Source of the DNA: a virus
Lineage: Duplodnaviria; Caudoviricetes
Strand: one strand, 5' to 3'
IMG/VR virus record: IMGVR_UViG_3300027917_004314
DNA length: 64,000 nucleotides
The notes below the pieces were generated by a model. That model made no database searches, was not told the origin of the DNA, and was given only the letters and a program-made list of their open reading frames with translations. Below, piece after piece: positions 2,287 through 35,440 of the stretch. The position numbers and the translations under genes were made by a program. Each line of letters starts with the position of its first letter. Position 1 is the first letter of the stretch.

Positions 2287-4863
2287 ATGCCTTCAAAATA
2301 TGATCGTGAGTATGCTCGTGATATTCCACTACCAGACTGGCTAAAGGAATTTGCCGATAGCAACTTAGATAAAAGTGGCACCACCATCGAGGATATTAAA
2401 AACCTTTTCCACACGAAGAATGAACTAGACTCTGTAGAGGCTAGGGTAGAAGAACTTCGAGAAAGGGTCGGATTAGACGCCATAGAAAAAACAGCTGCAA
2501 AACAAAAAGAACTAATTCCTGGAGGGTTTGCAGAAGGCCAGCCTGATGAGAAATATGATAAAGAGCAGCTTGGTAAAGGTATAGGCGTCGAAATGGAGCA
2601 CACGCCGGATTGGGAAGTTGCAAAAGAGATAACAAAAGATCATCTAGAAGAGTCCGAAGATTTTAAAGATGGTGAGGGTGGAAAATATTACGACAAGCTC
2701 GATAAGGCAGAAGAAGAGATTAAGAAAGAAGTTGATAAAAAGAAGGCTTTGCGTATACAGCGGCTGATTACTTTGGCGGATTATTTAGACGAAGAGGGAT
2801 GTGTTAATGGTGCTAAATATATAGACACCTTAATACGTAAGCTTGCCGACATGGAGCGTCTGCCAATCATGGCTGATCCCATATTATGGTCGGACGAACA
2901 ATTATTAGAAGTTGTTAATACTCCTGGTCTTAGTGAAATGGCAGCCAAGAAGCAGGTACCACCAAGCACTGCAGAAGGAAAGGAAAAAAGTTTACTGCAA
3001 GCAGTCGTGGATGAGATTAATAAAAGAAATATTGCTCAGGGCTTAAAACCGCCGAATGTAGAAGCATGGAGAGAACGAGGATATTGGCTGCTTTATGGTC
3101 TAAATGGACAGTTATTGGGTATTTATAATAATGATAGTAAGGCTCAGATGGCCAAATCTAAATTAGCTGATATGTTTGCTGCGGGACAAAGTTTTAATAT
3201 GATAGGCGGTGAATATATGCCCTATCTTATACAGTATATCGCAGAAAAGGCTCTTAGTGCTGTTGCACCTGAAGGGGATGATGATAAGCGAGAGGCTTTT
3301 TTCTTTTCTGCGGAAGCTGCAGATATCCATGATGATGCCGCAGAGAAAGCACGTGAACTTTTAACTGATCCAGGACTCGCGCGCAAAAGAAAGGAGCATG
3401 CTGAAAAGCAAATACAAATTGTAAAAACGCCTTGGCATTTTGAGGAATATATAGACCCCAAAGCGATTCCAGAAGGTCAGATACCTACTGATGAAAATGC
3501 AGACGCTGCTTTCGAGAGTACTAAAAAGTTTAATTTGGACCCCCAAAATAATGAGCTGCCAATAGTAAGACCAAATATACATGACACTCAAAGACCAGGG
3601 AGAAAAGAGTTTGTTAAAGATTATGAACGTGAAATTGTTCAGAAATATCGCAGAAAAGAGAAGGGTCTTCCTACAAGCAAAGAGGAAAGTACGGATGATG
3701 GTTTCGAGTTGTCTTGTCGTCATGGATTTAGGCTATCCAAAAGGGCAATTAAATGGTATGCTCCAAAAGAAACAAGTCCTGTGGTTGGGCCATGGCAGAG
3801 TTATAAGTTGCCGCCAGGTGCTGGCACAACGCTTGAACCTATTTCTGAAGAAGAAATGTGGAGAAGGGAACAGGCTAAAAAGCCTCAAGTGGTAGAACCA
3901 GAGCCAAGAGAAACGAAAGAGCCTGAGGCAGAACCAGAGGAAGAGCCGGAAAGCACCATGTCATCGTGGTATTTAATGGCAGCATTTGGACAAGGACTTG
4001 GTTGGTTTAAGGAGAAACAGCATGCAGAAGATGCCAAGTGGGCGGTTGTTAACCAGTTTTCTGATCTCGATATAGATAAGTCGGGCAAAAGCGTATTGTT
4101 CAATTGTTTTAAGGATTATCTACAAAATCTGTGGAATCGCCAAATAACAAACTCCCACGTAAAAACGGAGTTAATAAATTTTGTTAACAGCACTACCAAC
4201 CAGGTATACATTGATGAAAGGGATTTAGCAGGACAAAAAGCGGTACAAATTTATGAAATTGTGGAGCACGCATTTGCACCACGTGGTGGGATATATGGAG
4301 AAGATGAACACCCAACTGGAGATTATATCGATTTAGCCGTGATTGCACTTAAAGGATTAGGCAGCCAATACGAACGAACACATCCTCTTTATCAAGTGCC
4401 AGCGGATGCTGAAGATGCTATAAGCGCAAGTGCTGAAAATGGCGAGAGAGTTATACAGGAAGTAATTAGGTGGGCTGAAAGAAGAGCCGGTCATTCTGCG
4501 ACCGCGCCATCTTATACTGATGATAATGTAATAAAAGCATTCTATTTGTCAAAACGTGCAAAAGAGAAGAGCATTTTCGAGCAATTCCCGAAGCTAGAAA
4601 CCTTTGTCCGAAATGTTTGTCGTTCTCGCGGCGGCTATGTAGAACTTCCGGCCATACAAACAATGATTAGAAATGAAAGACCAGAGAACATAGATGTACA
4701 TAATAAGGAACTAGTTGAGTTTATCAAAAAGTGTCTAAAAGAAAATAAACAAGAAGTTCAAGACGATAACACACACGATGGCGAGTTTGTATCTGAAATA
4801 AGGATGTATGATGATGATGGAAACAGAACTGTCTTTTACGAGCCACCTAGCGATATTATATAG
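2287..4863 (+). CDS. Internal head protein with DUF5661-like domain, helical-hairpin tag and two FxLSKRA motifs
   Basis: GGAG RBS before ATG 2287; GIGVEMEH...AKEITKDHL...YYDKL resembles DUF5661; LITLADYLDEEG tag at 2764; FRLSKRA 3727, FYLSKRA 4540. Confidence 0.7.
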   Translation: MPSKYDREYARDIPLPDWLKEFADSNLDKSGTTIEDIKNLFHTKNELDSVEARVEELRERVGLDAIEKTAAKQKELIPGGFAEGQPDEKYDKEQLGKGIGVEMEHTPDWEVAKEITKDHLEESEDFKDGEGGKYYDKLDKAEEEIKKEVDKKKALRIQRLITLADYLDEEGCVNGAKYIDTLIRKLADMERLPIMADPILWSDEQLLEVVNTPGLSEMAAKKQVPPSTAEGKEKSLLQAVVDEINKRNIAQGLKPPNVEAWRERGYWLLYGLNGQLLGIYNNDSKAQMAKSKLADMFAAGQSFNMIGGEYMPYLIQYIAEKALSAVAPEGDDDKREAFFFSAEAADIHDDAAEKARELLTDPGLARKRKEHAEKQIQIVKTPWHFEEYIDPKAIPEGQIPTDENADAAFESTKKFNLDPQNNELPIVRPNIHDTQRPGRKEFVKDYEREIVQKYRRKEKGLPTSKEESTDDGFELSCRHGFRLSKRAIKWYAPKETSPVVGPWQSYKLPPGAGTTLEPISEEEMWRREQAKKPQVVEPEPRETKEPEAEPEEEPESTMSSWYLMAAFGQGLGWFKEKQHAEDAKWAVVNQFSDLDIDKSGKSVLFNCFKDYLQNLWNRQITNSHVKTELINFVNSTTNQVYIDERDLAGQKAVQIYEIVEHAFAPRGGIYGEDEHPTGDYIDLAVIALKGLGSQYERTHPLYQVPADAEDAISASAENGERVIQEVIRWAERRAGHSATAPSYTDDNVIKAFYLSKRAKEKSIFEQFPKLETFVRNVCRSRGGYVELPAIQTMIRNERPENIDVHNKELVEFIKKCLKENKQEVQDDNTHDGEFVSEIRMYDDDGNRTVFYEPPSDII

Positions 4864-4865
4864 TC

Positions 4866-6719
4866 ATGGCATTTAAACAAAAAAGAAACGCTTTAGACGA
4901 CTGGAAACCAGAAAATAGTTTTGATTCTCTTAAGAGAGAATTTATGAAGGTCGATCCAGTTACTTTTGCAGAGACTTTCCTCACTCTTGATGGAAAGCCT
5001 TTTCGTATTACGGGCAACGGATGGAAATTCATAGCGGATATATATAGACATATCTCTGTGGTTTCAATGTCGAATGAAGGTAAGCCGGTCGTAATAGTGA
5101 AAGGCAGACAGGTCGGCGCGACAACCATGGCGTCTGCCATGGAATTGCACATGGTGGCAAGCGGAACATACGGAAGAAACGGACAACCTCCTGTTAGGGT
5201 AATGCATGCGTTTCCACAGTTGGAAATGATGCACGGCTTTGCCAAAGATAAGCTGGAAAAAATGATTTTAGAATCAATACAAATTCCAGATTTTGATGAC
5301 AAACATAGTCCAGGCAAAATGAAACCCTTCATTAATGCTCAGAAGGATTCGGCTAGAGACGCCACTGATGCACTGCGATATAAACAATTCAAGTATGGAA
5401 ATACTTTGTGGTGCGAATCAATAGGTAACGAGGGGACGAGAGTTATAGGTAGAACTTTTGACGTTTGTTTCTTCGACGAAGTCCAAGATATGAGCGAGGT
5501 GGCAATAGCCAAGACAATCAAGTGCCTTACTCGCGCTCAACACGGACCACAGCCTGGTGGGGTGCAAGTATTTTTTGGTACCCCAAGACAAAAGGGAACT
5601 TTATTCCATAGAATGTGGGAAGACTCAGATCAGCGCAGATATTATTTAAAATGTGCTGATTGCAAAAATTATTTCCTATTGTATACTCCTGGCTCTGACA
5701 AATGGGAAGAAGAAATTTGGTTATATGAAAATATAGTAAAATGTCCCAGCTGCGGCCATGAACAAGATAAAGTTATGGCGATTGAACATGGCAAATGGCT
5801 CCCTACGCCGGGCAAAGAAGATTCTAACTACATAGGTTTTCATTTTAATCAGCTATTTATTCCAGAATTTACTAAAGAAGTGATAGTAAAGGAAAAGCCT
5901 GAGCATAACACTAGAAACTCAGAAATGATTTTCAACAATGAAGTGCTCGGGGAGTTTCATTCTGGTGCCGGCCTTCCCATCACATTTGAAGAAATTTATC
6001 GGATGTGTAAAGATCAAGACCGTTCAGTACCAAAATTCATACCGAAGGGGGAAAGGCTTTCATACCTCGGTATGGACTGGGGAGGTAAACCAGACATAGA
6101 CAACGTTAAGAGAGGTCAATCTTTTTCTTGTGGCGTTGTGTTGACCGTAGACCATGACGAGAGATATCTCGTAGAATTCGGAGAAAAACTGAAACGATTG
6201 GATCGTGAAAGTAAGATGAGTTTTGTTGATGAAATGTTTCGCATATACGGCGTTAAGAACGCTATGGGCGATATTGGCTTTGCAGAAGACATTACTAACG
6301 ACCTCAAAATGAAGTATGGCGAGAAATATAAAAGTGTTAGGAGTTCCGGGATGGTTTCTGGTGGTGTAAAATATAATAGAGATGAATTAGAAATAGTGGT
6401 AGACAAAGATAAAATTATTGGAGAAGTCTTTGAATTGCTGAGGAGAGGCAGAATTAGATTTCCTTGGGCAAGTTATGAAAAAATTGCGTGGCTGATTAGA
6501 CATTGTTGCTCTATGGAAAGCAAAATCGTCACTAGACAGGGTCAGCCGCATCAGACATATATGAAGGGCAAAGAACAAAACGACGGACTTATGGCACTGA
6601 TTTACGCTTATTTGGCTTACAAATTTGATAAAACTCGTGGTTTTAAAGTAAATCCGAACGTGCCCAGCAGCACTATATTTCCAAAACCAGTTCTTGCATA
6701 TATACCAAAAAATATATAG
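4866..6719 (+). CDS. terL: Terminase large subunit
   Basis: Walker A-like VKGRQVGATT, Walker B FFDEVQD, GTP coupling motif, CxxC..CxxC zinc site, RNase H-like GMDWGG nuclease motif. Confidence 0.93.
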   Translation: MAFKQKRNALDDWKPENSFDSLKREFMKVDPVTFAETFLTLDGKPFRITGNGWKFIADIYRHISVVSMSNEGKPVVIVKGRQVGATTMASAMELHMVASGTYGRNGQPPVRVMHAFPQLEMMHGFAKDKLEKMILESIQIPDFDDKHSPGKMKPFINAQKDSARDATDALRYKQFKYGNTLWCESIGNEGTRVIGRTFDVCFFDEVQDMSEVAIAKTIKCLTRAQHGPQPGGVQVFFGTPRQKGTLFHRMWEDSDQRRYYLKCADCKNYFLLYTPGSDKWEEEIWLYENIVKCPSCGHEQDKVMAIEHGKWLPTPGKEDSNYIGFHFNQLFIPEFTKEVIVKEKPEHNTRNSEMIFNNEVLGEFHSGAGLPITFEEIYRMCKDQDRSVPKFIPKGERLSYLGMDWGGKPDIDNVKRGQSFSCGVVLTVDHDERYLVEFGEKLKRLDRESKMSFVDEMFRIYGVKNAMGDIGFAEDITNDLKMKYGEKYKSVRSSGMVSGGVKYNRDELEIVVDKDKIIGEVFELLRRGRIRFPWASYEKIAWLIRHCCSMESKIVTRQGQPHQTYMKGKEQNDGLMALIYAYLAYKFDKTRGFKVNPNVPSSTIFPKPVLAYIPKNI

Positions 6720-6728
6720 AGGTGACTA

Positions 6729-8750
6729 ATGGTAAATAGAAGGAATGATCGAAAACCCGCTAAGATTAGGGTGACGCCAAGAAGGGCTGCTGACGTTACG
6801 GAGTATAGAAAGGCCGAACTTTCAACAGATGTAGACAATGGGATTATATCAGAAGGTACGAGTTATGCCGGTAGTCGACTTAACAGGAGTAATCCTACAG
6901 TTGAGAATGCGCCGCTTGACAGTGATAGGCTAAATCGTGGTGCATGGCTTTCGTCTGGAGACAAGACGATTACCGAAACAAGGAAGAAAGTTAGTTTGAT
7001 TAATGGCGGTGCATCAAAAACTGCCGTTGGTGCTGTTGCACATAGTGATACATATTTGAAAACAGCTGCAGCAGAAGCAGCCAGAGAGTTACAAAAAACC
7101 GCTGCCTCTGTTGGATCTGTAGGTGGAACGGCAGGCACCTCTGCGGGGAGCACTGTAGAGAGACTTGCCCCAGAAGTTTATAGTCCGCTATTCACTATGG
7201 CAAATCTTAATTTGCCTCGTGATAGGATAACTATCAATGCCTGGTGCAGAAATTTTTTCTTATTGCATCCAATAGTAAGAAACGCAATTACATTACATGC
7301 AACATATCCTATCAGCAAATTAAATATAAAATGCCAGGATAAAAGGGTACTTCAATTTCACGAAGACATGATAGAGGAAATGGATTTGATGGGCGCGCTT
7401 GGAGATATTTCTCTCGAGTACTGGAAATTGGGCGAATGTTTCCCATACGCCGAGCTAGATGAAGAAAGAGGAAAATGGTCCAAGATCGTAGTTCAGAACC
7501 CGGACTATGTTCATGTGAAGAAAACTGTACTATCAGGTGATCCCATTATATCGCTAAAGCCTGATGCTGTACTCCAGCGTCTTGTAATGAGCAATAATCC
7601 TGCAGACATGCGACTTAGAAGACAGATTCCGGAGAAAATTATCTATCACGTTAGAGCGCGCCAAGATATACCGCTTGATAACTTTAATGTCTCTCATCTA
7701 AAGTTGCTTTCTAGTCCATACGATGTGAGAGGTACAAGCATTATAGTTAGTGCATTTAAAGACCTCATGCTCTATGACAAAATTCGTGAATCCAAATTTG
7801 CACAAGCGGACTCAATGATTAATCCTATTACACTCATTAAAGTGGGTGGCAACGAAGATGGCGACTATAGAGCAACGCAAGAGGATTTAGAGTTCTTCCG
7901 TGAAATTTTTGAAGAAGCCGAGTATGATAAGAATTTCAAGCTTATTACGCATGCCGGCGTAAAAGTAGAGCGTGTTGGTTATACTGGACAAGTATTAGAA
8001 ATTTCTGGAGATATGGAACTTATTATCAAAAACATTTATACTGGTTTGATGGTTCCTCCGGCAGTCGTTGACACTGAAAGTGCTGTTTACGCATCTGCTT
8101 CTATCGGCTTGGAAGTGTTAAGGCAAAGGTATTTCAATTTTAGAAATATGATGGCCAAGTGGCTTGTAAATAAGATTTTTGCTCCTATTAGTGAAATTCA
8201 AGGTTTTTACGAGTATAAAAACAAAGAGAAAAGATTAATAGTTCCAGAAGTAGAGTGGAATCATATGAATCTCTATGATCTACAAGACTATATTTCAAAT
8301 ATTACTGGCATGGTAAGCTCGAAACAGGCCTCTGTTCAAACTTTGTACCGCAGCATGGGGCTTAACTATGAGGATGAGAAAATAAAGATGCGACAAGAAT
8401 CCATTGACGAAGCCATACGCAGAAGGGAAGAGATGGCTCTTGGAACTATGACACTTACTGAATTGCGTTCGCTGGATCCAGAAAAGCCAATTATGGAAGC
8501 CATTGATTCTAGGGAACGAGAAGCTGAGCCTGCTGTTCCACCAGAAGCTGGTATGCCGGCGGGCGTTATGCCGCCGGGAGCCGAGATGGGAGCTGGTCCG
8601 TTGGGAGGTCTGCCAGAACTTGCTCCTCCGCCAGGAGGAGCGTTGGAAACGCCCCCAGGTGCGGGAGCCCCTCCAGGTGCTGGAGTTACACCGCCACTAG
8701 GGCCTGGAACCCCTGGCGGAGCAGGTGGGCCAGGCGGGCTAGGTGTATAG
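6729..8750 (+). CDS. Portal protein
   Basis: Immediately after terL; HPIVRNAI, GECFPY, SPYDVRGTSII segments typical of portals; Pro/Gly low-complexity tail. Confidence 0.85.
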   Translation: MVNRRNDRKPAKIRVTPRRAADVTEYRKAELSTDVDNGIISEGTSYAGSRLNRSNPTVENAPLDSDRLNRGAWLSSGDKTITETRKKVSLINGGASKTAVGAVAHSDTYLKTAAAEAARELQKTAASVGSVGGTAGTSAGSTVERLAPEVYSPLFTMANLNLPRDRITINAWCRNFFLLHPIVRNAITLHATYPISKLNIKCQDKRVLQFHEDMIEEMDLMGALGDISLEYWKLGECFPYAELDEERGKWSKIVVQNPDYVHVKKTVLSGDPIISLKPDAVLQRLVMSNNPADMRLRRQIPEKIIYHVRARQDIPLDNFNVSHLKLLSSPYDVRGTSIIVSAFKDLMLYDKIRESKFAQADSMINPITLIKVGGNEDGDYRATQEDLEFFREIFEEAEYDKNFKLITHAGVKVERVGYTGQVLEISGDMELIIKNIYTGLMVPPAVVDTESAVYASASIGLEVLRQRYFNFRNMMAKWLVNKIFAPISEIQGFYEYKNKEKRLIVPEVEWNHMNLYDLQDYISNITGMVSSKQASVQTLYRSMGLNYEDEKIKMRQESIDEAIRRREEMALGTMTLTELRSLDPEKPIMEAIDSREREAEPAVPPEAGMPAGVMPPGAEMGAGPLGGLPELAPPPGGALETPPGAGAPPGAGVTPPLGPGTPGGAGGPGGLGV

Positions 8751-8800
8751 ATGGTAGCAATTTTGAATATTATGAGGAAAAGGGATATTAAGGGTGAAAT

Positions 8801-9070: not shown

Positions 9071-10853
9071 AAATCCAGATGTACCTTCTGTAAAAGAGGC
9101 TGTTATGCTAGCAGACCTATTTGACAGTGTCGGGGAATATGAGACTGCCGCATTGTTGGATGAGTTTGTCAAACACGCCATGTCTGATGATATCATGAAA
9201 CAAGCGGGGTTTTGGTCTAACATTTTGAAACGCCTCAAGGGTAGATCTAAGAGAATTTTCTTCTCGGTGTATAGAGAACTTCATGATAAAGCAAAAGATG
9301 CACAAGAAGAACTTGATGCCGAAGTCAAAAGAATCAATGAGGATTTTAAGAGTGTTAAAAAACATCTTAAATTATATGAGTTAGTGGATTGGCGTTATGA
9401 AGCGCAAAAACTGGGCCTGGCAAACGTAGAGGAGATCATGTCTGGCTACGACCAAGCCTACGCTAAACTAATAGGGTTCTTTGACGTTCATAAAAAACCT
9501 GATGAAGAAATTTCCGAGGAAGAAAAACCAGAAGAAAAATTATCACCTATTGAAAAGTTACCTGGAAAACCTACAGGAAGACGCATACCTGGTGCAGAGG
9601 AGGGGTGGGTTAGGTTGGATCCACGTACTGCATCAATTCAGAAGAATGAGGAGACGGGTGACTTAAGAATCGATTTTGACAAGTTTCAAGACTATTTAGG
9701 AATCCATTTGGGTATGCCAGCGAAAAATAAAGTTAGATTTGTAGAACATCGCGGCAAATTGGGCAGACTTGAAGATTTAAAAGAGTTTATGGGAACTGAT
9801 ATCTGGAACATTATAAAAACTGATGATAAGTGGGTGTATTTATCTAAGACAGAACCAATCGTACCAGAGGAAGTGGCTATCGAGCCTGAAGAAGAAGAGG
9901 AAGTTGAAAGCCCATTTGATATAGTACCAACACTAGAACCGGAAAAAGAAGTGCCGGAAAAAAAGGTCACAAAAGAAAAACCGAGCCCGCCGCCGTCACC
10001 GCCGAAACCAGAAGAAGTTGCAGAAGAACGAATTGTCGAAGAAGAAGAAGAAGAGGTTCCTGAAGTGTCTGCATCATCTAAGATGGAACGGTTTATCGAA
10101 AAATATTATGATAGCAACATAACTGTAGATGGATTGTGGAAAGATATATATGGTATGATGCGCGAGGGCGTTTCGATTGATGAGGCGATAGAATCTGTCG
10201 AGGACATTTATGATTGGTATTCAGGCTTATCAGACTTGGATCGTGCCAGCATAGCGTTTGTGGCAAATAAATTGGTAAACAAGGGCGTCAGATTGTCTGA
10301 TGCACTTAGAAGACTAAAAATTAGTAAAGAGAAGGCTGAGACTTCCGAAGAGCCGGTTACAGAAGAAGAACTGGCGCCTACGAAGCCAGAAATTCCTGCC
10401 AAGCCGCCCGGTAAATCTTTTATGGAATGGTACAACTCTTTGGCACCTGAAGACCAACAGAAGGTAACCGAAGAGATTAATAGGCTGGTTGATGAAGGTC
10501 TGACTACAGAGCAAGCAAAAGAAAAGGTCCAGTCGATGGTGGCCATGCCAACCACGGAGCCAACTGCCGTGAGACCTAAAGTATGGGTAGAAAGGCCTGG
10601 CATGAGATGGCACAGTGCAGCAGCAAAGAGGGGCATGATAGGCTATGTACGAATACTTGAATCAAATGTCAAAGAGACCGACAGAATAGAGACCGACCCA
10701 GAAGTTATAGAATTTTTAAATTATCAGTCGCAGGGCAAACGTGTGGCAGCGTTGCCAGCCAACTGGCGAGAAATATTGACAGGATATCGCCAACAGCAAT
10801 CCCCAAGAACAGCACGAATGAGAAGAATAATGGAATTGCATACAACTTCATGA
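9057..10853 (+). CDS. Putative internal/ejection protein with helical-hairpin tag
   Basis: AVMLADLFDSVG...AALLDE tag at N-terminus, MKQA then amphipathic GFWSNILKRLKG, Glu/Pro-rich linkers. Confidence 0.7.
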   Translation: MTKSKNPDVPSVKEAVMLADLFDSVGEYETAALLDEFVKHAMSDDIMKQAGFWSNILKRLKGRSKRIFFSVYRELHDKAKDAQEELDAEVKRINEDFKSVKKHLKLYELVDWRYEAQKLGLANVEEIMSGYDQAYAKLIGFFDVHKKPDEEISEEEKPEEKLSPIEKLPGKPTGRRIPGAEEGWVRLDPRTASIQKNEETGDLRIDFDKFQDYLGIHLGMPAKNKVRFVEHRGKLGRLEDLKEFMGTDIWNIIKTDDKWVYLSKTEPIVPEEVAIEPEEEEEVESPFDIVPTLEPEKEVPEKKVTKEKPSPPPSPPKPEEVAEERIVEEEEEEVPEVSASSKMERFIEKYYDSNITVDGLWKDIYGMMREGVSIDEAIESVEDIYDWYSGLSDLDRASIAFVANKLVNKGVRLSDALRRLKISKEKAETSEEPVTEEELAPTKPEIPAKPPGKSFMEWYNSLAPEDQQKVTEEINRLVDEGLTTEQAKEKVQSMVAMPTTEPTAVRPKVWVERPGMRWHSAAAKRGMIGYVRILESNVKETDRIETDPEVIEFLNYQSQGKRVAALPANWREILTGYRQQQSPRTARMRRIMELHTTS

Positions 10854-19410: not shown

Positions 19411-20064
19411 ATGAATGATAGTATCACCAAAATAGCCAAAATTGTTAAAAGAAAAGGCAAATGGTGTGTAATTGGGCATAAAAAAACAAAGGGGAAATAT
19501 CGCAATTTTGGTTGTTATGACTCAAAGGAAGAGGCAAAAAAGCGACTTGGGCAGATTTATTTGTTTAAATTAAAAAAAGCCGAGTTGTTGAAAACTCTAA
19601 TTCAGGTCTCCGACCAATTAGATAAGCGCGGCATCATCCATATTGCCGATGCACTTACCGGCTGTATTGAATCTATTGCTTCCGAAGATTCAGAAAACCA
19701 GTCTGTTATTAAGCTCGGCAAAATTATTTGTCTTTTAAAAAAGAAAGGGGAAAATGAACTAGCAGAAGCCGTTGATAATTTACTACCAGACGTCTTAAAG
19801 CTCGAATGTGTTGACTGTGATATAGAAATTCCCAAGTCCAGGAAAAGGATCTCTGCTCTAAGAGCTTACAACATAGTACAAACGCTTCATAGAAAATATG
19901 TTGAAGGTATGATAGACGAAAATTGTTTTGAGTATTCCAAAATGGAAGAACTAAGAGCCATGCTTAAAGAAGGGTTTTCATTTCCTGCGCCGCCATCATA
20001 TAATGCATTGCCAGAAGATGTCGACAATTGGTGGGATCATTTTTTAAAACGAGGTGACAAATAA
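19411..20064 (+). CDS. Internal head protein, basic N-terminal domain plus helical-hairpin tags
   Basis: KGKWCVIG..NFGCYDSKEEAKKRL N-domain; LIQVSDQLDKRG and LLKKKGENELAEAVD hairpin-like segments. Confidence 0.7.
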   Translation: MNDSITKIAKIVKRKGKWCVIGHKKTKGKYRNFGCYDSKEEAKKRLGQIYLFKLKKAELLKTLIQVSDQLDKRGIIHIADALTGCIESIASEDSENQSVIKLGKIICLLKKKGENELAEAVDNLLPDVLKLECVDCDIEIPKSRKRISALRAYNIVQTLHRKYVEGMIDENCFEYSKMEELRAMLKEGFSFPAPPSYNALPEDVDNWWDHFLKRGDK

Positions 20065-20328
20065 ATGGTAATTAACAAACTCTCCGATAAGGCAAAAGTG
20101 GCGCTGCTTGGAAAACTAGATGCCATTATAGAAAATGATCCTCAAATCGAGGCCGATGATTCTATGGTTCTGTTGGCAGAGTTGGCGGATAGATTAGACG
20201 CCGAAGGTTTTTGTGAAGCAGCTAACGAGATAGATGCACTTATCGAACAAAAGAATAAAAAACTTAAAAGACCTGGGCGAATGAAAGCTAAAGAAATAAG
20301 ACAAAAATTCGCCAAGAATAAAAAGTAA
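20065..20328 (+). CDS. Small protein consisting mainly of the helical-hairpin tag
   Basis: LAELADRLDAEGFCEAANEIDALI; TAAATG coupling to neighbours. Confidence 0.75.
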   Translation: MVINKLSDKAKVALLGKLDAIIENDPQIEADDSMVLLAELADRLDAEGFCEAANEIDALIEQKNKKLKRPGRMKAKEIRQKFAKNKK

Positions 20329-20685: not shown

Positions 20686-20689
20686 ATAT

Positions 20690-22681: not shown

Positions 22682-22953
22682 TCGACGAAGAAACCATTAC
22701 TATAGTTGCAAATCTCAGAAATACACTAAATAGACGCGGATTTACACGGTCCGCTGCAGAAATTAATGAAATTTTATATCAACTTATAGAAGATCGATAT
22801 GCACTGGAACCTGAGGAGGAAGAGGAAGATGAGGCTAGTGACGCCTTTGTAGCATCAAATATCGTTGGATTACGAGGAGATGTGCAGCCCGAACAACCTT
22901 GGGGTGGTTGGGGCGTTAACCCATTTTTTCACGATCCGGGAGAGCCCAACTAG
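22678..22953 (+). CDS. Small protein with degenerate helical-hairpin tag
   Basis: IVANLRNTLNRRGFTRSAAEINEIL; ATGA overlap. Confidence 0.65.
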   Translation: MIDEETITIVANLRNTLNRRGFTRSAAEINEILYQLIEDRYALEPEEEEEDEASDAFVASNIVGLRGDVQPEQPWGGWGVNPFFHDPGEPN

Positions 22954-28204: not shown

Positions 28205-28229
28205 AAACTATCTATTGGAGGTTTACAAA

Positions 28230-29048
28230 ATGACAAGCCTAAAGCGACAAGACGCTGATGAAATTATAGACGCAATGGCTAGGGCTCTTGGGGGTGATAT
28301 GTTCAAAGCGGCTTCGGTAGAGAAAGAAGCCCAAGGAATGAGCATAGAGCTATTGATGGCCCTTATGCATGAAGAATATAGGAAAGGCAAAGCGCAATAT
28401 GATTCTATGGATGAAGCGCAGGCAAGCAAGGCGGTATCTACCAAAGTGTGGAACGAGAATTTGGAAGATATTCAGGCACAAGAAAATAAAGAGCCTGGCT
28501 TTTTAGAGAGGGCTGCTGATCTGAGAGACAGCTATATGGTTCCAAAAAGAGCTGCCGATGATGGTGCTGCTGAACAACCTTGCGACGATTGCGACGAACA
28601 AATGGCACAAGACCAGCCAGAACGAGAAGCTCAGACTTCTCTAGCTATTGACTTTGCAATGGGTCATCTAGTGAAGATAGCTGATGCTCTTGATAACAAG
28701 GGTTTTGCCGGTGTGGCCAGCATTGTAGATGAAACAATCGAGAAATTAGCAAAAAAAAAAGTAAAAAAAAAGTATAAAACTTGGGAAGGAAAAGACGAGA
28801 AGTCGCCCAAAGGAGCAGAATATAAGGCTCCCAAGGAGTGGTTTGACAAAATGAAGGCAGATGTCAAAAAGAAGAATCCTGACTACTCTGCCAAAAGAAT
28901 TAGAGAGATTGTCGGAGATATTTGGGACAATGAGCTTAGCGAAAAGAAACGCAAATCTATCCTTAAAAAGTATGAAAAGGGTGGCAAGGAAAAGAAAGCT
29001 GAAGATGAAAGACCCGCTAAGCTTGCTAAATCCAAAGATCAAGACTAA
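28230..29048 (+). CDS. Internal protein: KxA motifs, helical-hairpin tag, basic HMG-box-like C-terminus
   Basis: GGAGG RBS before ATG 28230; HLVKIADALDNKG tag; KKNPDYSAKRIREIVGDIW. Confidence 0.75.
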   Translation: MTSLKRQDADEIIDAMARALGGDMFKAASVEKEAQGMSIELLMALMHEEYRKGKAQYDSMDEAQASKAVSTKVWNENLEDIQAQENKEPGFLERAADLRDSYMVPKRAADDGAAEQPCDDCDEQMAQDQPEREAQTSLAIDFAMGHLVKIADALDNKGFAGVASIVDETIEKLAKKKVKKKYKTWEGKDEKSPKGAEYKAPKEWFDKMKADVKKKNPDYSAKRIREIVGDIWDNELSEKKRKSILKKYEKGGKEKKAEDERPAKLAKSKDQD

Positions 29049-29069
29049 TAACATAAAAGGGAGAACCGT

Positions 29070-29765: not shown

Positions 29766-29775
29766 TGGAGGCGTA

Positions 29776-30141
29776 ATGACTTTTTCAAAAGAGGATAAGG
29801 CTGCGTGGCTCAATAGCGAGGTTATGCAAGAGCTTGAAAAACTTGGTGAGAGCGTCCTTAATGGGCCACCTCCCGAGGCTTTCGAGCCGCTAGAGAATGT
29901 TGCAGCTGCTGAAACATGGGAAGACGAAGACTTGGAAGAAAAAATAACTGAAGCCGTTAAAGAATTTGAGCAGCCTGTAGTTCCAATTGAGAAAGAGTTT
30001 GTTGTTGCGTATAACAAGCGTCTTCTTGCAAACATAGAAAAGATTGCGTATCATCTATCAGACAAAAAAAACATTACGGCTGCATATAGAGTAGAACAAT
30101 CATTAAGACAACTTAAAGCTTTGTTGCGGGAGGAAAATTAA
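29776..30141 (+). CDS. Small scaffold-like protein: WxxSEVMQE leader + helical hairpin
   Basis: GGAGG RBS; AAWLNSEVMQELEK resembles the start of 34046; ends right after the hairpin tag. Confidence 0.75.
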   Translation: MTFSKEDKAAWLNSEVMQELEKLGESVLNGPPPEAFEPLENVAAAETWEDEDLEEKITEAVKEFEQPVVPIEKEFVVAYNKRLLANIEKIAYHLSDKKNITAAYRVEQSLRQLKALLREEN

Positions 30142-32892
30142 ATGCGCAATTTAAATATAGGCGGATCTTGGGAGGAAGAGTTCTATAAGATAGCATCTGA
30201 GAAAGGATGGATCGTAAAAGAAGCTGTTGAGCCCGAGCCCGCAACAGCACAAGAAGAAGGTTTGGAGTTCGAGCCGACTGTGGTTAGTGTGCCTAGGGCT
30301 GGGAAAACTATTTGGGATTTGCAGCAGATTCTTCAAGTAACGGTACCTACCATGCCGCTTAGCAAAGAGGGGGGGCCGGATGGTAAGTGGGGTCCTATGA
30401 CAGCCAGAGCATGGAATGCGCTGGCTAGTCAAGTTAACGCCAAGAAGGGAGATTTGGTGTTGACGGATGTCAACCCAGATGGTAGCGAACTTCCGATTTT
30501 AGACCAAATGAGGTGGGTTATAGCAGGGATGCCAAGTGGCACTTCCGAAGATATAGTTAAGGAGCTTCAAGGTGCCGGTGCTGCTGCAAAGGTGGACGAT
30601 GATATGAAAACTACAGCCTTTATAGTTCAAGAACTGATTTCTTTAGCTGGCGACCTAGAAGAAATGGGAGAAGTCGAGGCCGCTGTAGCTGTCGATAAAC
30701 AAATATCCATTTATAAGGAAGCGCTGGATAAGTTGTATGATGTAACTGGTGAAACAGGAGAACAGCTTGTCGAGCAGGCTCATCCGGGCGGCGGCCCTAC
30801 TATTGTCCCGGCAAAGGAAGAGGGCGGCAAAGTCGAGACTATTGTAGAAGAACAGAAGAAAAGTATCGACAAGGCAACTAAGAAGCCTACTGGTAAATAT
30901 GCCCAACTGATGCTTAATCTAATTGCTACCGCCAATAGCCTTGAGGATGAGGGTAGGACAGAAGAAGCCCAAATGGTGGATCAAACATTACGAGAACTGT
31001 TAGAGACACCCCCTTTCGCGGGTAGGGGTACAGCTTCCGAGACGGCTGGCTCCGAGGATTCGAAAGTCTCGGGCTTAGAGAAAACAGCGTTTATACAAGA
31101 GGGCATTCCTAGCGATATTAAAGACTTTCTCGGTCACCTTCGAGAGGATAAAGGAAATGTTGATAGGTTATATTGGCCTGCAATGGATGGGGTTATAAAC
31201 AAGCTTTCTCCACACATTGCCATATTTGAAAGAGTCGAAAAGTTAGATTTTACTAAAGAAGCAAATGTTAAGAAAGCTCAAAGAGCGGCTGTATTGTTGT
31301 ATAAAACTTTATTGCAGGCGCTTGGACCGGTATATACCATTGCAGAAAATAACAGATTATTAAGTAGAGGTATGATTCTTAAAAAGAGATTTTATGATAT
31401 TTTTACCTCTTTGAAGGAATTGCTTAGCGGTGCCTCATATGCAGCTAAAGAATTTGGTCCGAAAAAAGCTCCAAAACCGGCTCCGGCTGTCGCCAAGAAG
31501 CCTGAGTCTCAAATCCTTAGAAATTATAGGTCTGCTTTGCGAAGAGTGCTTAAAGTAATGGAAAACCCTGATTATAAGCTTCTGAATATTCTTGGTAAGG
31601 GTGATAGAAAAGCTGGCAGGCGCAAAGCTTTTGAAATTGAGAATATAATAAAAACAGAACTAAAGAAACACTACGATAAAATCCAGGCTGGAGACAGACT
31701 CGATGCGCTTTATAACAAAACTATAAAGCCCCTACAGACCCATGGAATTATTATTGCCTCGGCAAAGGAAGAGCTTGTAAAGGAAGCTGATCTTGGAATT
31801 TCTATTGCACCCAAGGAAAAGCCATCAAAGAAAAGGCCCGCGAAAGGTAAAGCCGTAGAGATAGATCCATTGGTGAAGACGTTTCAACAGGCAGCGATGG
31901 CGCTACATGGGCCAAATGCAGTCGGACCAAAGAAAGATGATGGTAAGTGGGGGCCTAGCACGAAAGGTGCCTATGAAAAGGTGATGGCTGAACTTCGTAA
32001 GGTAAAGCCAGATGCAAAAGTTTTCCCGGCACAACCAACGCCGCAATCGTTGAACTGGGGTATATATATTGCAGAACGGTTGGCTCAAATGAAAGGTGCT
32101 GCTCTTGGTTTGCCGCAAGATATGGACATTCCATATACAGATAAAATAAAGTTCAAGCTTAGAGAACTCGCAGATCCGAGAGCTTTTCTTACTACACTAG
32201 CTGGATTTAGGACGCAAAATGTTCTACCCGATGTACATACCGGAGAAGAAACCGCAGAAGCTTTTACAATACTTGCAAAGTTGTATAACAAACTTACTAG
32301 AGGCAAGGAATATAGAGAAAATCTAACGTTTAGTAGTGGAGTTGTCGGAGTTGCCGACAAGGCCGCAAAAGTTGTTTTTGATACTTTTAAGCAATTATAT
32401 AACATGCCTGGTGGCAAACAGAGTTATGAGGGATTGGTTAAAAAGAGAACGCCCGCAGCAAAAAAGGCTCCAAAGAAAACTCCAGAAGCACGCATGGATT
32501 TGTCATGGGCGGCACCAGGGCGCGAAAGAACCGAAGAGTTAGATACACCAGATAAAGTCGCTGTAGCGATTCGCGGATTGCCATTTATGGAGTTCTTGGC
32601 TCAAGTAGATGCATTTGAAGAAATCGCTTTGAACGCATCTAGATATGACAAAAGTCTTCGTGGATTTTGGGGCGAGACGGTTCCATATGGAAGTGAAACT
32701 CCCAAACAACGAAGAGAAGTGGCAAGGAAATTTTTGAAAAAACTTAAGACCAGAGCTGGACGTCTATATAGCGCTTTGGGCAGGGTTCAAGGAGAGTTTT
32801 TAGCTAAATATAACAAAAGGGATTTCTTAAATTTTGTACACCACATGCAGACTTATTTTGTAGCATTGAGGCAATTAGCAGAGGCATTATGA
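30142..32892 (+). CDS. Putative ejection/internal protein with two hairpin tags, two PG-binding-like motifs and candidate -1 frameshift
   Basis: DGKWGPMT and DGKWGPST motifs; tags at 30634 and 30919; C_CCT_TTC at 31011. Confidence 0.75.
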   Translation: MRNLNIGGSWEEEFYKIASEKGWIVKEAVEPEPATAQEEGLEFEPTVVSVPRAGKTIWDLQQILQVTVPTMPLSKEGGPDGKWGPMTARAWNALASQVNAKKGDLVLTDVNPDGSELPILDQMRWVIAGMPSGTSEDIVKELQGAGAAAKVDDDMKTTAFIVQELISLAGDLEEMGEVEAAVAVDKQISIYKEALDKLYDVTGETGEQLVEQAHPGGGPTIVPAKEEGGKVETIVEEQKKSIDKATKKPTGKYAQLMLNLIATANSLEDEGRTEEAQMVDQTLRELLETPPFAGRGTASETAGSEDSKVSGLEKTAFIQEGIPSDIKDFLGHLREDKGNVDRLYWPAMDGVINKLSPHIAIFERVEKLDFTKEANVKKAQRAAVLLYKTLLQALGPVYTIAENNRLLSRGMILKKRFYDIFTSLKELLSGASYAAKEFGPKKAPKPAPAVAKKPESQILRNYRSALRRVLKVMENPDYKLLNILGKGDRKAGRRKAFEIENIIKTELKKHYDKIQAGDRLDALYNKTIKPLQTHGIIIASAKEELVKEADLGISIAPKEKPSKKRPAKGKAVEIDPLVKTFQQAAMALHGPNAVGPKKDDGKWGPSTKGAYEKVMAELRKVKPDAKVFPAQPTPQSLNWGIYIAERLAQMKGAALGLPQDMDIPYTDKIKFKLRELADPRAFLTTLAGFRTQNVLPDVHTGEETAEAFTILAKLYNKLTRGKEYRENLTFSSGVVGVADKAAKVVFDTFKQLYNMPGGKQSYEGLVKKRTPAAKKAPKKTPEARMDLSWAAPGRERTEELDTPDKVAVAIRGLPFMEFLAQVDAFEEIALNASRYDKSLRGFWGETVPYGSETPKQRREVARKFLKKLKTRAGRLYSALGRVQGEFLAKYNKRDFLNFVHHMQTYFVALRQLAEAL
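31011..31073 (+). promoter_or_regulatory. Candidate programmed -1 ribosomal frameshift signal (slippery heptamer + pseudoknot)
   Basis: In-phase C_CCT_TTC 31011-17; 7-nt spacer; stem 31025-35/31044-53; loop CCGAGAC pairs with GTCTCGG 31066-72; -1 TAG at 31023-25. Confidence 0.65.
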
Positions 32893-34046: not shown

Positions 34047-35440
34047 TGTACAAAGAATGGGAAAGCAGCGGCGTTATGCAAGAATTTCTAAAAGTCGCTG
34101 CAAAATCGGGTTTGATAACATCAGATCTACAACAAAAAGAACTAGCTGGTAATGCCGACGAGGAGACGCCTGTAAAAGATCACAGGAGATATGAACCTAC
34201 CGAAGAATACGAGCTAGAGGTAGAGGGTGGAAATTTAGTTGAGAAAGCTCACCCAGAACAAGCGTGGACGGCCAAACAAAGTCCCATAATGAATAGTATG
34301 GGCGAAGGAAGTCTTGTAGAAAACATTGAAGAACAGCAAAAAAAAGATATCGAGGTCGCAACCAAGATGCCTAGCGGCGCATTGCCTGGCATTCATGCCT
34401 CGATGGTTTCTGAGTTGATTAAACTTGCTGATCGGCTTGATGGAGAAAACAAGACTAAAGAAGCAGCAAGAATTGATGAAACGATTGAGAGGCTTGGCCG
34501 CCTCCCTTTCGCCGATAGCCGCCCGCGCATTAAAGAAGGCGGTTGGTTTGCGCCAATCGTACTTTTAATTACTACTGTAGCACCACTCGCTTGGGATTAT
34601 TTTTTTAACAAAGGTAAAATAACAACCACTAAAGGCAAACCTGATGTGGGGAAAGGTAGAGTTGTTAGGACAAGGAAAGCTCCAATGGGTAGGGTTGGCA
34701 AAGTTATTACCACAATAGGACTTGGTTTATCAGCGTTAACCTTGCTAGGAAAAAAGATCACAAGCGTGCAAGAAGGCATTAAAAAAGACACGAAAGATCT
34801 ACATGATGTGCTACAAAAGGCAGCACCAGAATCAGCTGCAGCAGCTCAGGCTGCGGCGAAATTAGCACCATATATCAAAGAACTTGAACAAAAGCCAACA
34901 AAGCCAGAAGATTATACGAGATATCGGCAAAAGGTTATAGAACTTAAGAGCTTATTGCCATCTATCAGGAAACACATAGACGACGCATTGTCTACTGACA
35001 TCGAGGCTGGCCTTTGGACATGGACAGGGTTAGATTTACACTCTAGAATAGCTGAAAAATTGAATACTTGGGAAGCCGACCTGGAAGCCGTAAAAACGAA
35101 GGGGGCTAGGTTAGATGCTGTGGCGGCAGAAGAATATCGACGGACGCCAATGGTTATGGAGGGCGTTTATGGTTTGCAACAAGTGCTAACACTAAATGGT
35201 CTGCTTTCTAAAAATCAAATAAGTGGTGCGATGGATGATGTGACGCTTAAAGCGACACAGCAGCTAGAGAAACGCTTAGACACAGACACTGATACTCTCT
35301 ATAGTAAGAAAATTATTAGGCGAAAACCAAAGGATGGTTTTGCTGGCAAAATAGTTAGAAACGGCCAATTGGTTATGAGACCTGAAAAATTGCAGAGGAT
35401 CATAAGTCTTATAGACCAACTTAAAGCCAAAATGGGTTAA
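34046..35440 (+). CDS. Putative ejection/internal protein, N-terminal paralogue of 30142, candidate -1 frameshift
   Basis: WESSGVMQE leader, AHP..ATKMPSG module, LIKLADRLDG tag, C_CCT_TTC at 34504, hydrophobic segments, PG-binding-like LQQVL..SGAMDDVT. Confidence 0.75.
   Translation: MYKEWESSGVMQEFLKVAAKSGLITSDLQQKELAGNADEETPVKDHRRYEPTEEYELEVEGGNLVEKAHPEQAWTAKQSPIMNSMGEGSLVENIEEQQKKDIEVATKMPSGALPGIHASMVSELIKLADRLDGENKTKEAARIDETIERLGRLPFADSRPRIKEGGWFAPIVLLITTVAPLAWDYFFNKGKITTTKGKPDVGKGRVVRTRKAPMGRVGKVITTIGLGLSALTLLGKKITSVQEGIKKDTKDLHDVLQKAAPESAAAAQAAAKLAPYIKELEQKPTKPEDYTRYRQKVIELKSLLPSIRKHIDDALSTDIEAGLWTWTGLDLHSRIAEKLNTWEADLEAVKTKGARLDAVAAEEYRRTPMVMEGVYGLQQVLTLNGLLSKNQISGAMDDVTLKATQQLEKRLDTDTDTLYSKKIIRRKPKDGFAGKIVRNGQLVMRPEKLQRIISLIDQLKAKMG
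34504..34553 (+). promoter_or_regulatory. Candidate programmed -1 ribosomal frameshift signal
   Basis: In-phase C_CCT_TTC 34504-10; stem AGCCGCC/GGCGGTT 34517-23/34538-44; loop GCGCA pairs with TGCGC 34549-53; -1 TAG at 34516-18; GAGG 11 nt upstream. Confidence 0.6.

What the first reader, a model, noticed from the sequence alone, without database searches (positions are those of the whole stretch)
2764..34498. A ~28-aa helical-hairpin tag shared by about nine internal proteins
Consensus LxxLA(D/N)xL(D/E)xxG....A..(V/I)D..(I/L)..L occurs at 2764, 9099, 19597, 20173, ~22700, 28668, 30034, 30634, 30919 and 34415 in otherwise dissimilar proteins. Two tiny genes (20065, 29776) are little more than the tag. 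I saw none in terminase, MCP, decoration, neck or tail proteins. It is a plausible capsid-targeting or scaffold co-assembly module, analogous in role to the T4 capsid-targeting sequence but structured.
Basis: partly seen in the sequence, partly recalled or inferred. Interest (0 to 1): 0.8.

Follow-up and report, generated by a model that had tools for sequence, protein, structure and literature searches.

The report
Portable two-helix tag on megaphage head-module proteins
An uncultured giant phage from marine sediment attaches the same 31-36-residue acidic two-helix module to at least nine otherwise unrelated proteins, nearly all encoded among its head-assembly genes; the module is real, widespread in related metagenomic phages and undescribed, and most likely docks proteins into the young capsid, though its partner is unknown.

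Summary
The motif is real. A profile built from tags of other phages finds 8 copies in 7 window proteins (E 1e-6 to 2e-9) and 3 more copies in 2 proteins elsewhere on the 161-kb contig. Reversed and shuffled controls give none. Two claimed copies (about 22700 and 30034) fail.

The consensus is (I/V)xxL(I/V)xLA(N/D)xLDxxGxxxEA(D/N)x(V/I)DxxI. AlphaFold2 folds it as a helical hairpin.

It matches no Pfam, PHROG or PDB family, yet 1,382 representative metagenomic proteins carry it, often in 2-3 copies and often at the extreme N-terminus. It is absent from Bacillus phage G and three other relatives.

In four genomes where terminase and capsid genes could both be placed, 35 of 39 copies lie in the block from about 10 kb upstream of the terminase gene to just before the capsid gene. 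That block also holds the head protease-scaffold gene. One conserved 75-residue tagged protein lies outside the block.

Prohead docking is the best reading (about 0.45), but it is inferred. No partner was found. The largest candidate cargo proteins lack the tag, and tag-only proteins suggest multivalent assembly. A TPR-like register is suggestive, not significant.

This scan found the same tag earlier on other DNA (e1-5362322, e1-5378386).

The parts
2746..2853 (+). Tag copy, aa 161-196 of the 865-aa protein 2266-4863, which lies just upstream of the terminase gene
   Evidence: 32.0 bits, E 1.3e-8 with the foreign-tag HMM. Leave-one-out E 1e-7.
9081..9188 (+). Tag copy at the N-terminus (aa 9-44) of the 598-aa protein 9057-10853, which follows the portal gene
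   Evidence: 25.8 bits, E 1.1e-6. Orthologues after the portal gene in L006, L011, L013, L014 and L016 keep an N-terminal tag. Marginal in the 7-sequence leave-one-out test.
19579..19686 (+). Tag copy, aa 57-92 of the 217-aa protein 19411-20064. A possible half copy lies near 19741.
   Evidence: 24.9 bits, E 2.2e-6. The second stretch scores 6.4 bits and is not significant.
20155..20262 (+). Tag copy, aa 31-66 of the 87-aa protein 20065-20328, which is the tag plus a basic tail
   Evidence: 35.9 bits, E 7.9e-10.
28650..28757 (+). Tag copy, aa 146-181 of the 277-aa protein 28215-29048, followed by a Lys-rich region
   Evidence: 31.7 bits, E 1.6e-8. Weak sub-threshold HMG_box hit at aa 209-262, E 0.0033.
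30616..30723 (+). First tag (aa 159-194) of the 916-aa protein 30142-32892
   Evidence: 34.7 bits, E 1.9e-9. AF2 hairpin with block-mean pLDDT 81-87. 34 homologues keep two tags 92-99 aa apart, mostly 95-96.
30901..31008 (+). Second tag (aa 254-289) of the 916-aa protein 30142-32892
   Evidence: 33.3 bits, E 5.1e-9. AF2 hairpin with block-mean pLDDT 71-84.
34397..34504 (+). Tag copy, aa 118-153 of the 464-aa protein 34046-35440. This protein is a paralogue of 30142 over 94 aa around the tag.
   Evidence: 34.7 bits, E 1.9e-9. BLASTP 39% over 94 aa to 30142.
4866..6719 (+). Large terminase subunit (context; no tag)
   Evidence: Pfam GpA_ATPase 1.6e-16. phrog_675 1.3e-57.
6729..8750 (+). Portal protein (context; no tag)
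   Evidence: phrog_16240 2.8e-58. 35% identity to the phage G portal.
10861..19017 (+). 2718-aa multi-domain protein with ligase, ASCH, Prim-Pol-like, DJ-1/PfpI and LigD phosphoesterase domains. Candidate packaged cargo that lacks the tag.
   Evidence: Pfam hits. No tag hit.
23802..27959 (+). Head maturation protease domain (about aa 46-262) fused to a roughly 1100-aa E/K/A-rich extension that is probably the scaffold. No tag.
   Evidence: phrog_18299 head maturation protease 1.4e-10. 35% identity to phage G gp19, which the paper 10.1101/2024.12.16.628780 calls a head maturation protease. Composition.
36368..37399 (+). Major capsid protein (context; no tag). It marks the downstream end of the tagged block.
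   Evidence: phrog_2522 1.4e-76. 54% identity to the Bacillus phage G major head protein.
22678..22953 (+). 91-aa protein. The claimed tag at about 22700 is not supported.
   Evidence: 0.1 bits with the tag HMM.
29776..30141 (+). 121-aa protein. The claimed tag at about 30034 is not supported.
   Evidence: -3.5 bits with the tag HMM.

Best explanation
The tag is a self-contained, acidic helix-Gly turn-helix protein-docking module of 31-36 residues. Its nearly invariant positions are L4, A8, L11, D12, G15, A20 and D24. It is specific to a clade of uncultured megaphages related to phage G and has been shuffled onto many unrelated proteins.

About 90% of copies are encoded in the head-morphogenesis block, around the prohead protease-scaffold gene and ending just before the capsid gene. 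The module therefore most likely recruits its carriers into the assembling prohead, where they would become internal proteins, some ejected into the host later.

Docking would occur through the broad hydrophobic face of the hairpin, flanked by the conserved Asp residues, onto a conserved basic or helical partner in the scaffold or shell. Two or three copies per protein would give avidity.

Shown: the module exists, it is portable, it folds as a hairpin in models, and it has this phyletic and genomic distribution. Inferred: the destination (prohead) and the mode of binding.
For: The module is real and significant: 11 copies on the contig, 0 in reversed or shuffled controls.

It is portable. The carriers are otherwise dissimilar. 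1,382 representative proteins carry it, and almost none of them has a Pfam domain.

Each tag folds as a helical hairpin in AF2: block-mean pLDDT 71-87 across the two tags of 30142, and four helices for the tandem tags.

Copies cluster in the block from about 10 kb upstream of TerL to the MCP start:
- own contig: 10 of 11
- G001: 9 of 10
- G002: 9 of 10
- G003: 7 of 8
Binomial P ranges from 1e-5 to 2e-3 per genome, and no copies lie downstream of the MCP in three of the four. An independent 29-kb contig (L030) shows the same layout: portal, protease-scaffold, three tagged proteins, MCP.

The block holds the head protease fused to a scaffold-like extension.

The carriers look like ejected proteins. 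The 30142 family carries PG_binding_1 (P0019, 30.9 bits against a cut-off of 23). The untagged neighbour 32889 has two hydrophobic segments. 28215 and 20065 have basic tails.

Orthologous carriers keep the tag in the same position across phages.

The tag is acidic: mean net charge -2.3 over 345 tags.
Against: There is no virion proteomics for any tag-bearing phage, and no partner has been identified.

The largest cargo candidates in the block have no tag (2718-aa polyvalent protein, 669-aa phosphatase-like protein, protease-scaffold).

One conserved tagged family of about 75 aa is encoded far from the head genes, beside a VWA protein and an Eco29kI-like nuclease. A TARA contig has four tagged genes next to a helicase.

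Multi-copy and tag-only proteins are not what a simple address label predicts.

No conserved cleavage-type motif follows the tag.

The block boundaries used for the clustering test were chosen after seeing the data, and copies within one protein are not independent.
Confidence: 0.45

Rival explanations
1. Self-pairing 'sticker'. Tags bind each other rather than a separate receptor, with two hairpins forming a ROP-like four-helix bundle or a short TPR-like stack. Single-, double- and triple-tag proteins and tag-only linkers would then knit into a multivalent internal protein network, a core or inner body that co-assembles with the prohead.
For: Two adjacent tags of the 255-aa protein are modelled as one compact four-helix unit (AF2 pLDDT 74, pTM 0.59). 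Its best structural matches are up-down four-helix bundles, including a single-chain ROP variant (Z 8.1-9.6).

About 6 of 11 helix-A positions and 5 helix-B positions are hydrophobic, more than one hairpin can bury on its own (inference).

Tandem spacings of 34 and 37-39 aa recur, and proteins of 62-139 aa consist of 2-3 tags only.
Against: The two tags of 30142, which lie 95 aa apart, are not packed together in AF2 (pTM 0.31, linker pLDDT <50).

The Z values are in the range the tool calls generic for helical bundles.

Conserved like-charged Asp residues at positions 12 and 24 flank the hydrophobic face, which disfavours symmetric pairing unless cations bridge them (inference).
Confidence: 0.2
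2. A general-purpose TPR-like interaction motif with no common destination. Each protein would use its hairpin for its own fold or partner, and the clustering in the head block would reflect local duplication and shuffling among neighbouring genes.
For: The conserved positions fall in the TPR register (compared with the TPR consensus from my own knowledge).

The only PDB sequence hits are designed TPR proteins, aligned in register (E 0.17).

The ESM Atlas model of the tandem region has TPR clusters as its nearest structures (TM 0.81-0.83 by query).

A few carriers have unrelated domains such as ferritin, AP2, zinc ribbon or EF-hand.
Against: Seven positions stay invariant in 89-97% of 345 copies across unrelated carriers, which argues for one shared partner or function.

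No Pfam TPR model hits at E<=10, and hhalign probability against a consensus TPR is 6%.

Tag positions and the head-block concentration are conserved across genomes whose MCP identity to this window falls to 64%.
Confidence: 0.15
3. The tag acts after ejection. It would gather injected proteins on a common host or phage hub inside the infected cell, such as the envelope, the entry site or the incoming DNA, rather than loading them into the capsid.
For: Some carriers have peptidoglycan-binding motifs or basic tails. The conserved small tagged protein is encoded among non-structural genes.
Against: Nothing points to a host partner. The tag occurs across many phages that presumably have different hosts, with invariant residues, which fits a phage-encoded partner better.
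Confidence: 0.1
4. Chance or compositional resemblance between amphipathic helices.
For: The motif is short.
Against: E-values of 1e-6 to 3e-11 with a profile built from other genomes. No hits in reversed or shuffled controls. 1,382 database proteins at E<=1e-3 against 1.8 billion representatives.
Confidence: 0.01

Closest known systems
Capsid targeting sequence (CTS) of phage T4 internal proteins (IPI-III, Alt; Mullaney and Black 1996, as summarised in PMC7697877)
   Same: A short portable element shared by unrelated proteins that are encoded with, or assembled into, the head. The proposed role is to load cargo into the prohead before DNA packaging.
   Different: The T4 CTS is about 10 residues, strictly N-terminal and removed by the head protease (PMC7697877). 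This tag is 31-36 residues and folds as a hairpin. It is internal or C-terminal in most copies, often repeated 2-3 times, and is not followed by a conserved cleavage-type motif. There is no sequence similarity.
C-terminal helix-turn-helix coat-binding domain of the phage P22 scaffolding protein (from my own knowledge; not tested here)
   Same: A small helical hairpin that docks a protein onto the inside of a procapsid.
   Different: The P22 hairpin is basic, unique to the scaffolding protein and C-terminal. This tag is acidic, portable across many proteins and absent from the presumed scaffold.
Encapsulation peptides of bacterial microcompartments and cargo-loading peptides of encapsulins (from my own knowledge; not tested here)
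   Same: Short helical tags at the N- or C-termini of diverse cargo proteins, joined by linkers, that recruit cargo into a protein shell. Microcompartment peptides also promote cargo self-association.
   Different: Those are single amphipathic helices or short extended peptides in cellular compartments, not two-helix units, and there is no sequence relation.
Tetratricopeptide repeat (TPR, 34-aa helix-turn-helix)
   Same: The unit length and the register of conserved small and hydrophobic positions agree (4, 7, 8, 11, 15, 20, 27, with Pro shortly after helix B). Tandem spacing of 34 aa occurs. Designed TPR proteins are the only PDB sequence hits (E 0.17), and TPR clusters are the nearest structures to the ESM Atlas model.
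   Different: No Pfam TPR hit and hhalign probability of 6%. Units are mostly solitary or widely spaced rather than in arrays of three or more. The invariant Asp12 and Asp24 have no TPR counterpart. The AF2 tandem model resembles a plain four-helix bundle.
ROP-type helical-hairpin dimers (four-helix bundle made of two hairpins)
   Same: Two tags in tandem are modelled as an up-down four-helix bundle that superposes on a single-chain ROP variant (1yo7, Z 8.1).
   Different: The match is in the generic range for helical bundles. Pairing between separate molecules is not shown.

Membership tests
T4-type capsid targeting sequence | About 10-residue peptide at the extreme N-terminus of the cargo | tested here: not met
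   The module is 31-36 aa. Only 1 of 8 window copies and 79 of 318 database copies are N-terminal.
T4-type capsid targeting sequence | Followed by a head-protease cleavage site that removes the tag | tested here: not met
   No conserved motif in the 25 residues after the tag, beyond the end of helix B and family-specific signals. The cleavage specificity of this protease is unknown.
T4-type capsid targeting sequence | Sufficient to load a foreign protein into proheads | not testable with these tools
   Needs an experiment.
TPR repeat (Pfam clan TPR) | Significant match to TPR profile models | tested here: not met
   No Pfam family at E<=10 for any of 11 tags. PDB profile search gives designed TPRs only at E 0.17.
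TPR repeat (Pfam clan TPR) | 34-aa register of small and hydrophobic positions 4, 7, 8, 11, 20, 24, 27 and Pro32 | tested here: inconclusive
   L4, L7, A8, L11, G15, A20 and I27 agree. Position 24 is an invariant Asp instead of an aromatic residue. The consensus is from my own knowledge.
TPR repeat (Pfam clan TPR) | Tandem arrays of three or more repeats forming a solenoid | tested here: not met
   Among the top 151 hits, 133 have 2 copies and 17 have 3. Most spacings are 60-450 aa, and only 27 adjacent pairs are at 31-46 aa.
P22-type scaffolding coat-binding hairpin | Basic C-terminal hairpin on the scaffolding protein itself | tested here: not met
   Tags are acidic (mean charge -2.3). The scaffold-like extension of 23802 has no tag.
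ROP-like hairpin dimer | Two hairpins associate into a four-helix bundle | tested here: inconclusive
   Tandem tags are modelled as a four-helix unit (pTM 0.59), with Z 8-9.6 to four-helix bundles. Distant tags in one protein are not packed. Intermolecular pairing is untested by experiment.
New tag family itself (as defined by alignment A4 and the foreign-tag HMM) | Match to the consensus with L4, A8, L11, D12, G15, A20 and D24 | tested here: met
   Eight window sites score 24.9-35.9 bits. The sites at 22700 and 30034 fail.

The most novel reading that the evidence does not exclude
The hairpins are mutually pairing 'stickers'. Single-, double- and triple-tag proteins, together with tiny tag-only linkers, would polymerise into a multivalent protein network inside the megaphage prohead. 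That would be a structured, modular cargo-loading and core-building system with no described counterpart. One conserved 75-aa tagged protein encoded elsewhere could act as a cap or regulator of the network.
Probability: 0.2. Interest if true: 0.85.

Novelty: new variant of a known kind. Interest (0 to 1): 0.66.

Why it matters
Giant phages package many proteins with their DNA, but outside T4 the signals that load them are essentially unknown. This is a sharply conserved, structured, portable module found on more than a thousand dark-matter proteins of uncultured megaphages.

If it is the loading signal, three things follow:
- It gives a sequence rule for predicting the packaged and ejected proteome of these phages from metagenomes.
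- It gives a handle for finding the receptor in the procapsid.
- It offers a possible tool for encapsidating foreign proteins.

If instead the tags pair with each other, it would be a new way of building an internal protein body. Either way the family deserves a domain definition.

Tried and rejected
**Binding tests**
- Complex prediction with the 9057 N-terminus (aa 1-62) plus the 87-aa protein 20065: no verdict (score 0.01, folds under pLDDT 50). This says nothing either way.
- The second AF2 job, on 30142 aa 142-302, did not bring the two tags together.

**Searches for a known family**
- Pfam on the tags and on 94 carriers: nothing informative.
- PHROGs on the carriers: nothing informative.
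- Foldseek against PDB with the tandem model: no match at E<=0.001.
- AFDB clusters and the atlas shape search: generic helical bundles only.

**Searches for the tag elsewhere**
- tblastn of a three-tag protein against 50,697 GenBank phage records: no match.
- Profile search of phage G, Rctr197k, LR745208 and Tunturi_5: no tags. The same tool found 6-12 tags in each of five relatives.
- The search for homologous proteins with the 87-aa protein: only itself.
- Literature search: no paper on this tag.

**Ideas dropped**
- That the N-terminal extension of the capsid protein, missing in phage G, is the receptor. The tag-less virus Rctr197k has a similar extension.
- That a cleavage motif follows the tag. 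None is seen.

**Uninformative context**
- Contexts of P0017, P0007 and P0020 were too short to use.
- Sequencing runs: the DNA holders are marine sediment metagenomes, probably the source sample. No RNA holder is listed.


Full report
**Setting.** The window is bases 64001-128000 of a 161-kb viral contig. Almost all of its genes are on the + strand. The identical 87-aa protein of gene 20065 also sits on a 460,921-bp contig, so the phage is probably a megaphage and only part of it is held here. The DNA is held by marine sediment metagenome runs, probably the source sample.

The capsid protein (36368-37399; phrog_2522, 1.4e-76) is 54% identical to the major head protein of Bacillus phage G, its closest cultured relative.

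The gene order in the window is:
- an 865-aa protein (2266-4863)
- large terminase (4866-6719)
- portal (6729-8750)
- a 598-aa protein (9057-10853)
- a 2718-aa protein with ligase, ASCH, Prim-Pol-like, DJ-1/PfpI and LigD-phosphoesterase domains (10861-19017)
- several small genes
- a 669-aa protein with a phosphatase-like domain (20672-22681)
- a 1385-aa protein (23802-27959)
- further unknown proteins
- a β-rich acidic protein (35618-36271)
- the capsid protein

The N-terminal part of the 1385-aa protein is the head maturation protease. It matches phrog_18299 at 1.4e-10 and is 35% identical to phage G gp19, which the paper 10.1101/2024.12.16.628780 calls a head maturation protease. The remaining 1100 residues or so are E/K/A-rich and look like a fused scaffold (inference).

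I then built an essentially independent profile from 345 tags of other phages and metagenomic proteins. With it, all 11 copies on the contig score 24.9-40.4 bits, E 2e-6 to 3e-11. Reversed translations and five shuffles of the same six-frame set give no hit at E<0.01. The claimed copies at about 22700 and 30034 score 0.1 and -3.5 bits and are not members.

The window therefore holds 8 copies in 7 proteins. The contig adds 3 more: two adjacent copies in a 255-aa protein 4.2 kb upstream of the window, and one at the N-terminus of a 79-aa protein at genome 15706. No copy lies in terminase, portal, protease-scaffold, capsid protein or anything downstream to the contig end. Apart from a 94-aa stretch shared by 30142 and 34046, the carriers have no other mutual similarity.

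**What the module looks like.** Column frequencies over the 345 tags give (I/V)xxL(I/V)xLA(N/D)xLDxxGxxx(E/A)A(D/N)x(V/I)Dxx(I/L). The most conserved positions are L4 95%, A8 94%, L11 91%, D12 89%, G15 96%, A20 97% and D24 95%. The tags are acidic, with a mean net charge of -2.3 overall and 0 to -7 for the copies on this contig.

AlphaFold2 with family alignments gives these models:
- For the two adjacent tags of the 255-aa protein: four helices (6-19, 23-35, 41-57, 61-74), mean pLDDT 74, pTM 0.59.
- For residues 142-302 of protein 30142: two hairpins, block-mean pLDDT 81-87 for the first and 71-84 for the second, joined by a disordered linker, overall pTM 0.31.

Each tag is therefore a helix-Gly turn-helix hairpin. 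Adjacent tags are modelled as one compact unit, and distant ones are not brought together.

**Distribution.** A profile search of 1.84 billion representative proteins found 1,382 at E<=1e-3 and 65 at E<=1e-10. The top 150 almost all carry 2-3 copies. In 80 of the 151 proteins scanned, which include the window's own 87-aa protein, the first tag starts within the first ten residues. Over 318 copies, 79 are N-terminal and 31 are C-terminal. Spacings peak at 34 and 37-39 aa for tandem copies, and at 95-96 aa for the 30142 family. Proteins of 62-139 aa consist of nothing but two or three tags.

Of 94 carriers scanned against Pfam, only a handful have any domain: three PG_binding_1 and single cases of ferritin, AP2, zinc ribbon and EF-hand. 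Neither Pfam nor PHROGs recognises the tag. tblastn of a three-tag protein against 50,697 phage records finds nothing.

The tag is absent from phage G, Rctr197k, LR745208 and Tunturi_5. The same search finds 6-12 copies in each of five closer metagenomic relatives. All of the 16 loci fetched through the portal protein that extend far enough carry tags.

**Where the tagged genes lie.** I placed terminase and capsid genes in the relatives and counted copies in the block from 10 kb upstream of the terminase gene to the start of the capsid gene:

| Genome | Copies in block | Block share of record | Binomial P |
|---|---|---|---|
| Own contig | 10 of 11 | 26% | 1e-5 |
| G001 | 9 of 10 | 16% | 8e-7 |
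| G002 | 9 of 10 | 15% | 3e-7 |
| G003 | 7 of 8 | 31% | 2e-3 |

None lies downstream of the capsid gene in the first three. The block limits were chosen after seeing the data, and copies within one protein are not independent, so these P values are indicative only.

An independent 29-kb contig repeats the pattern: portal, protease-scaffold (1148 aa), three tagged proteins with 1, 2 and 3 tags, then the capsid gene.

The single outlier in each genome is mostly the same thing. It is a conserved protein of about 75 aa with an N-terminal tag and an RDPRxPY tail, found on the own contig and in G001, G002 and G005. On this contig it sits beside a VWA protein and an Eco29kI-like nuclease.

Orthologous carriers keep their tags in place. 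The protein after the portal always starts with one. The 30142 family keeps two tags about 95 aa apart around a highly conserved linker.

**What the carriers are.** Most are unknown. In the 30142 family one member carries PG_binding_1 above threshold (P0019, 30.9 bits) and three are below it. The untagged neighbour 32889 has two strongly hydrophobic segments. 28215 and 20065 have Lys/Arg-rich tails, and 28215 has a weak HMG-box hit at E 0.003. These features fit proteins that act on the envelope or on DNA, as ejected or internal proteins do. That is inference.

**Mechanism.** The best reading is a docking module that brings its carriers into the assembling prohead. Four things support it: the head-block concentration, the neighbouring protease-scaffold, the positional conservation, and the very high conservation of surface Asp residues, which argues for one conserved partner. 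About half of the helix positions are hydrophobic. That is more than an isolated hairpin can bury, so the module must pack against something (inference).

What it packs against is open.
- A common receptor is favoured by the invariant acidic residues.
- Pairing of tags with each other is suggested by the tandem model, whose best structural matches are up-down four-helix bundles, including a single-chain ROP variant (Z 8.1-9.6, in the generic range). The tag-only proteins point the same way.

I dropped the idea that the N-terminal extension of the capsid protein is the receptor, because tag-less Rctr197k has a similar extension. No conserved motif that could be a cleavage site follows the tag, so a T4-like tag-and-cleave scheme is not supported by sequence.

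Three observations weigh against a simple address label: the largest candidate cargo proteins lack the tag, many proteins carry several copies, and one conserved tagged protein lies outside the head block.

**Comparison with known systems.** In role, the nearest is the T4 capsid targeting sequence, a roughly 10-residue N-terminal peptide removed by the head protease (PMC7697877). This tag fails the CTS defining features that could be tested: length, position and an adjacent cleavage site. It works like a CTS at most; it is not one.

In shape, the nearest are the P22 scaffolding hairpin and the encapsulation peptides of microcompartments and encapsulins. Both comparisons are from my own knowledge and were not tested here.

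In sequence pattern the tag falls in the register of the 34-residue TPR motif. The evidence for this:
- The only PDB sequence hits are designed TPR proteins, aligned in register, at a non-significant E of 0.17.
- The ESM Atlas model of the tandem region has TPR clusters as its nearest structures, TM 0.81-0.83 by query.

The evidence against:
- No Pfam TPR model hits.
- hhalign gives 6% probability.
- My AF2 model looks like a plain four-helix bundle.

TPR kinship is therefore a lead, not a finding.

**Novelty and earlier notes.** No paper or family describes the tag. This scan has already reported the same kind of tag on other genomes (e1-5362322, e1-5378386), with the same open question about the partner.

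- the exact census for this window
- rejection of two claimed copies
- the quantified head-block clustering in several genomes
- identification of the protease-scaffold fusion inside the block
- the conserved out-of-block small tagged protein
- the TPR-like register
- the four-helix model of tandem tags

Noticed in passing
window 23802-27959: The head maturation protease is fused to an E/K/A-rich extension of about 1100 aa, probably the scaffold. The extension holds a near-perfect internal repeat of about 72 aa (aa 467-541 and 614-685, core DKQMEGQGMEPGNDGLHPGY). The fusion is conserved in an independent contig (L030, 1148 aa).
   Followed up: partly
window 10861-19017: A 2718-aa protein in the head block combines an ATP-dependent ligase, ASCH, a weak LigD Prim-Pol match, DJ-1/PfpI and a LigD 3'-phosphoesterase. 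It looks like a polyvalent, possibly packaged, DNA-repair protein, and it has no tag.
   Followed up: partly
genome 15706-15945 (L002:7706-7945); L022, L023, L024: A conserved family of about 75 aa with an N-terminal tag, an extra helix and an RDPRxPY...GVPGPQ tail. It is encoded far from the head genes, beside a VWA protein and an Eco29kI-like restriction nuclease. It is the only tagged gene outside the head block in four genomes.
   Followed up: partly
G001:C1:187659-192111 (relative): The capsid gene of a relative is split into four pieces over 4.5 kb, with stop codons between them. This suggests introns or inserted homing elements in the capsid gene.
   Followed up: no
window 30565-31047 and alignment A6: The linker between the two tags of the 30142 family is more conserved than the tags themselves (LYDITGETGEQLIxxAHPGGGPTxxPAKEEGGKVETIVEEQKK, then PF after tag 2). 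A related AHP...EEQQKK stretch precedes the tag of 34046. Its function is unknown. Another first-stage note proposes a -1 frameshift at the conserved Pro-Phe codons (e1-5390266), which I did not test.
   Followed up: no
window 20672-22681: A 669-aa protein in the head block with sub-threshold matches to dual-specificity/tyrosine phosphatase families at aa 443-569. It is a candidate ejected effector, and it has no tag.
   Followed up: no
window 6729-8750: The portal ends in a 70-residue Pro/Gly/Ala-rich tail (aa 600-673). Residues 583-652 resemble part of a 514-aa protein encoded upstream at genome 60625-62169 (39% over 72 aa).
   Followed up: no
window 32889-34046: A basic 385-aa protein (pI 9.7) with two strongly hydrophobic segments (about aa 44-71 and 197-228), lying between two tagged genes just upstream of the capsid genes. 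It is a candidate membrane-inserting ejection protein, and it has no tag.
   Followed up: no
L021 (TARA ocean contig, 5.6 kb): Four consecutive tagged genes (553, 132, 93 and 74 aa) lie directly downstream of a ResIII/Helicase_C helicase. This shows that tagged genes also occur in arrays whose head context is not visible.
   Followed up: no
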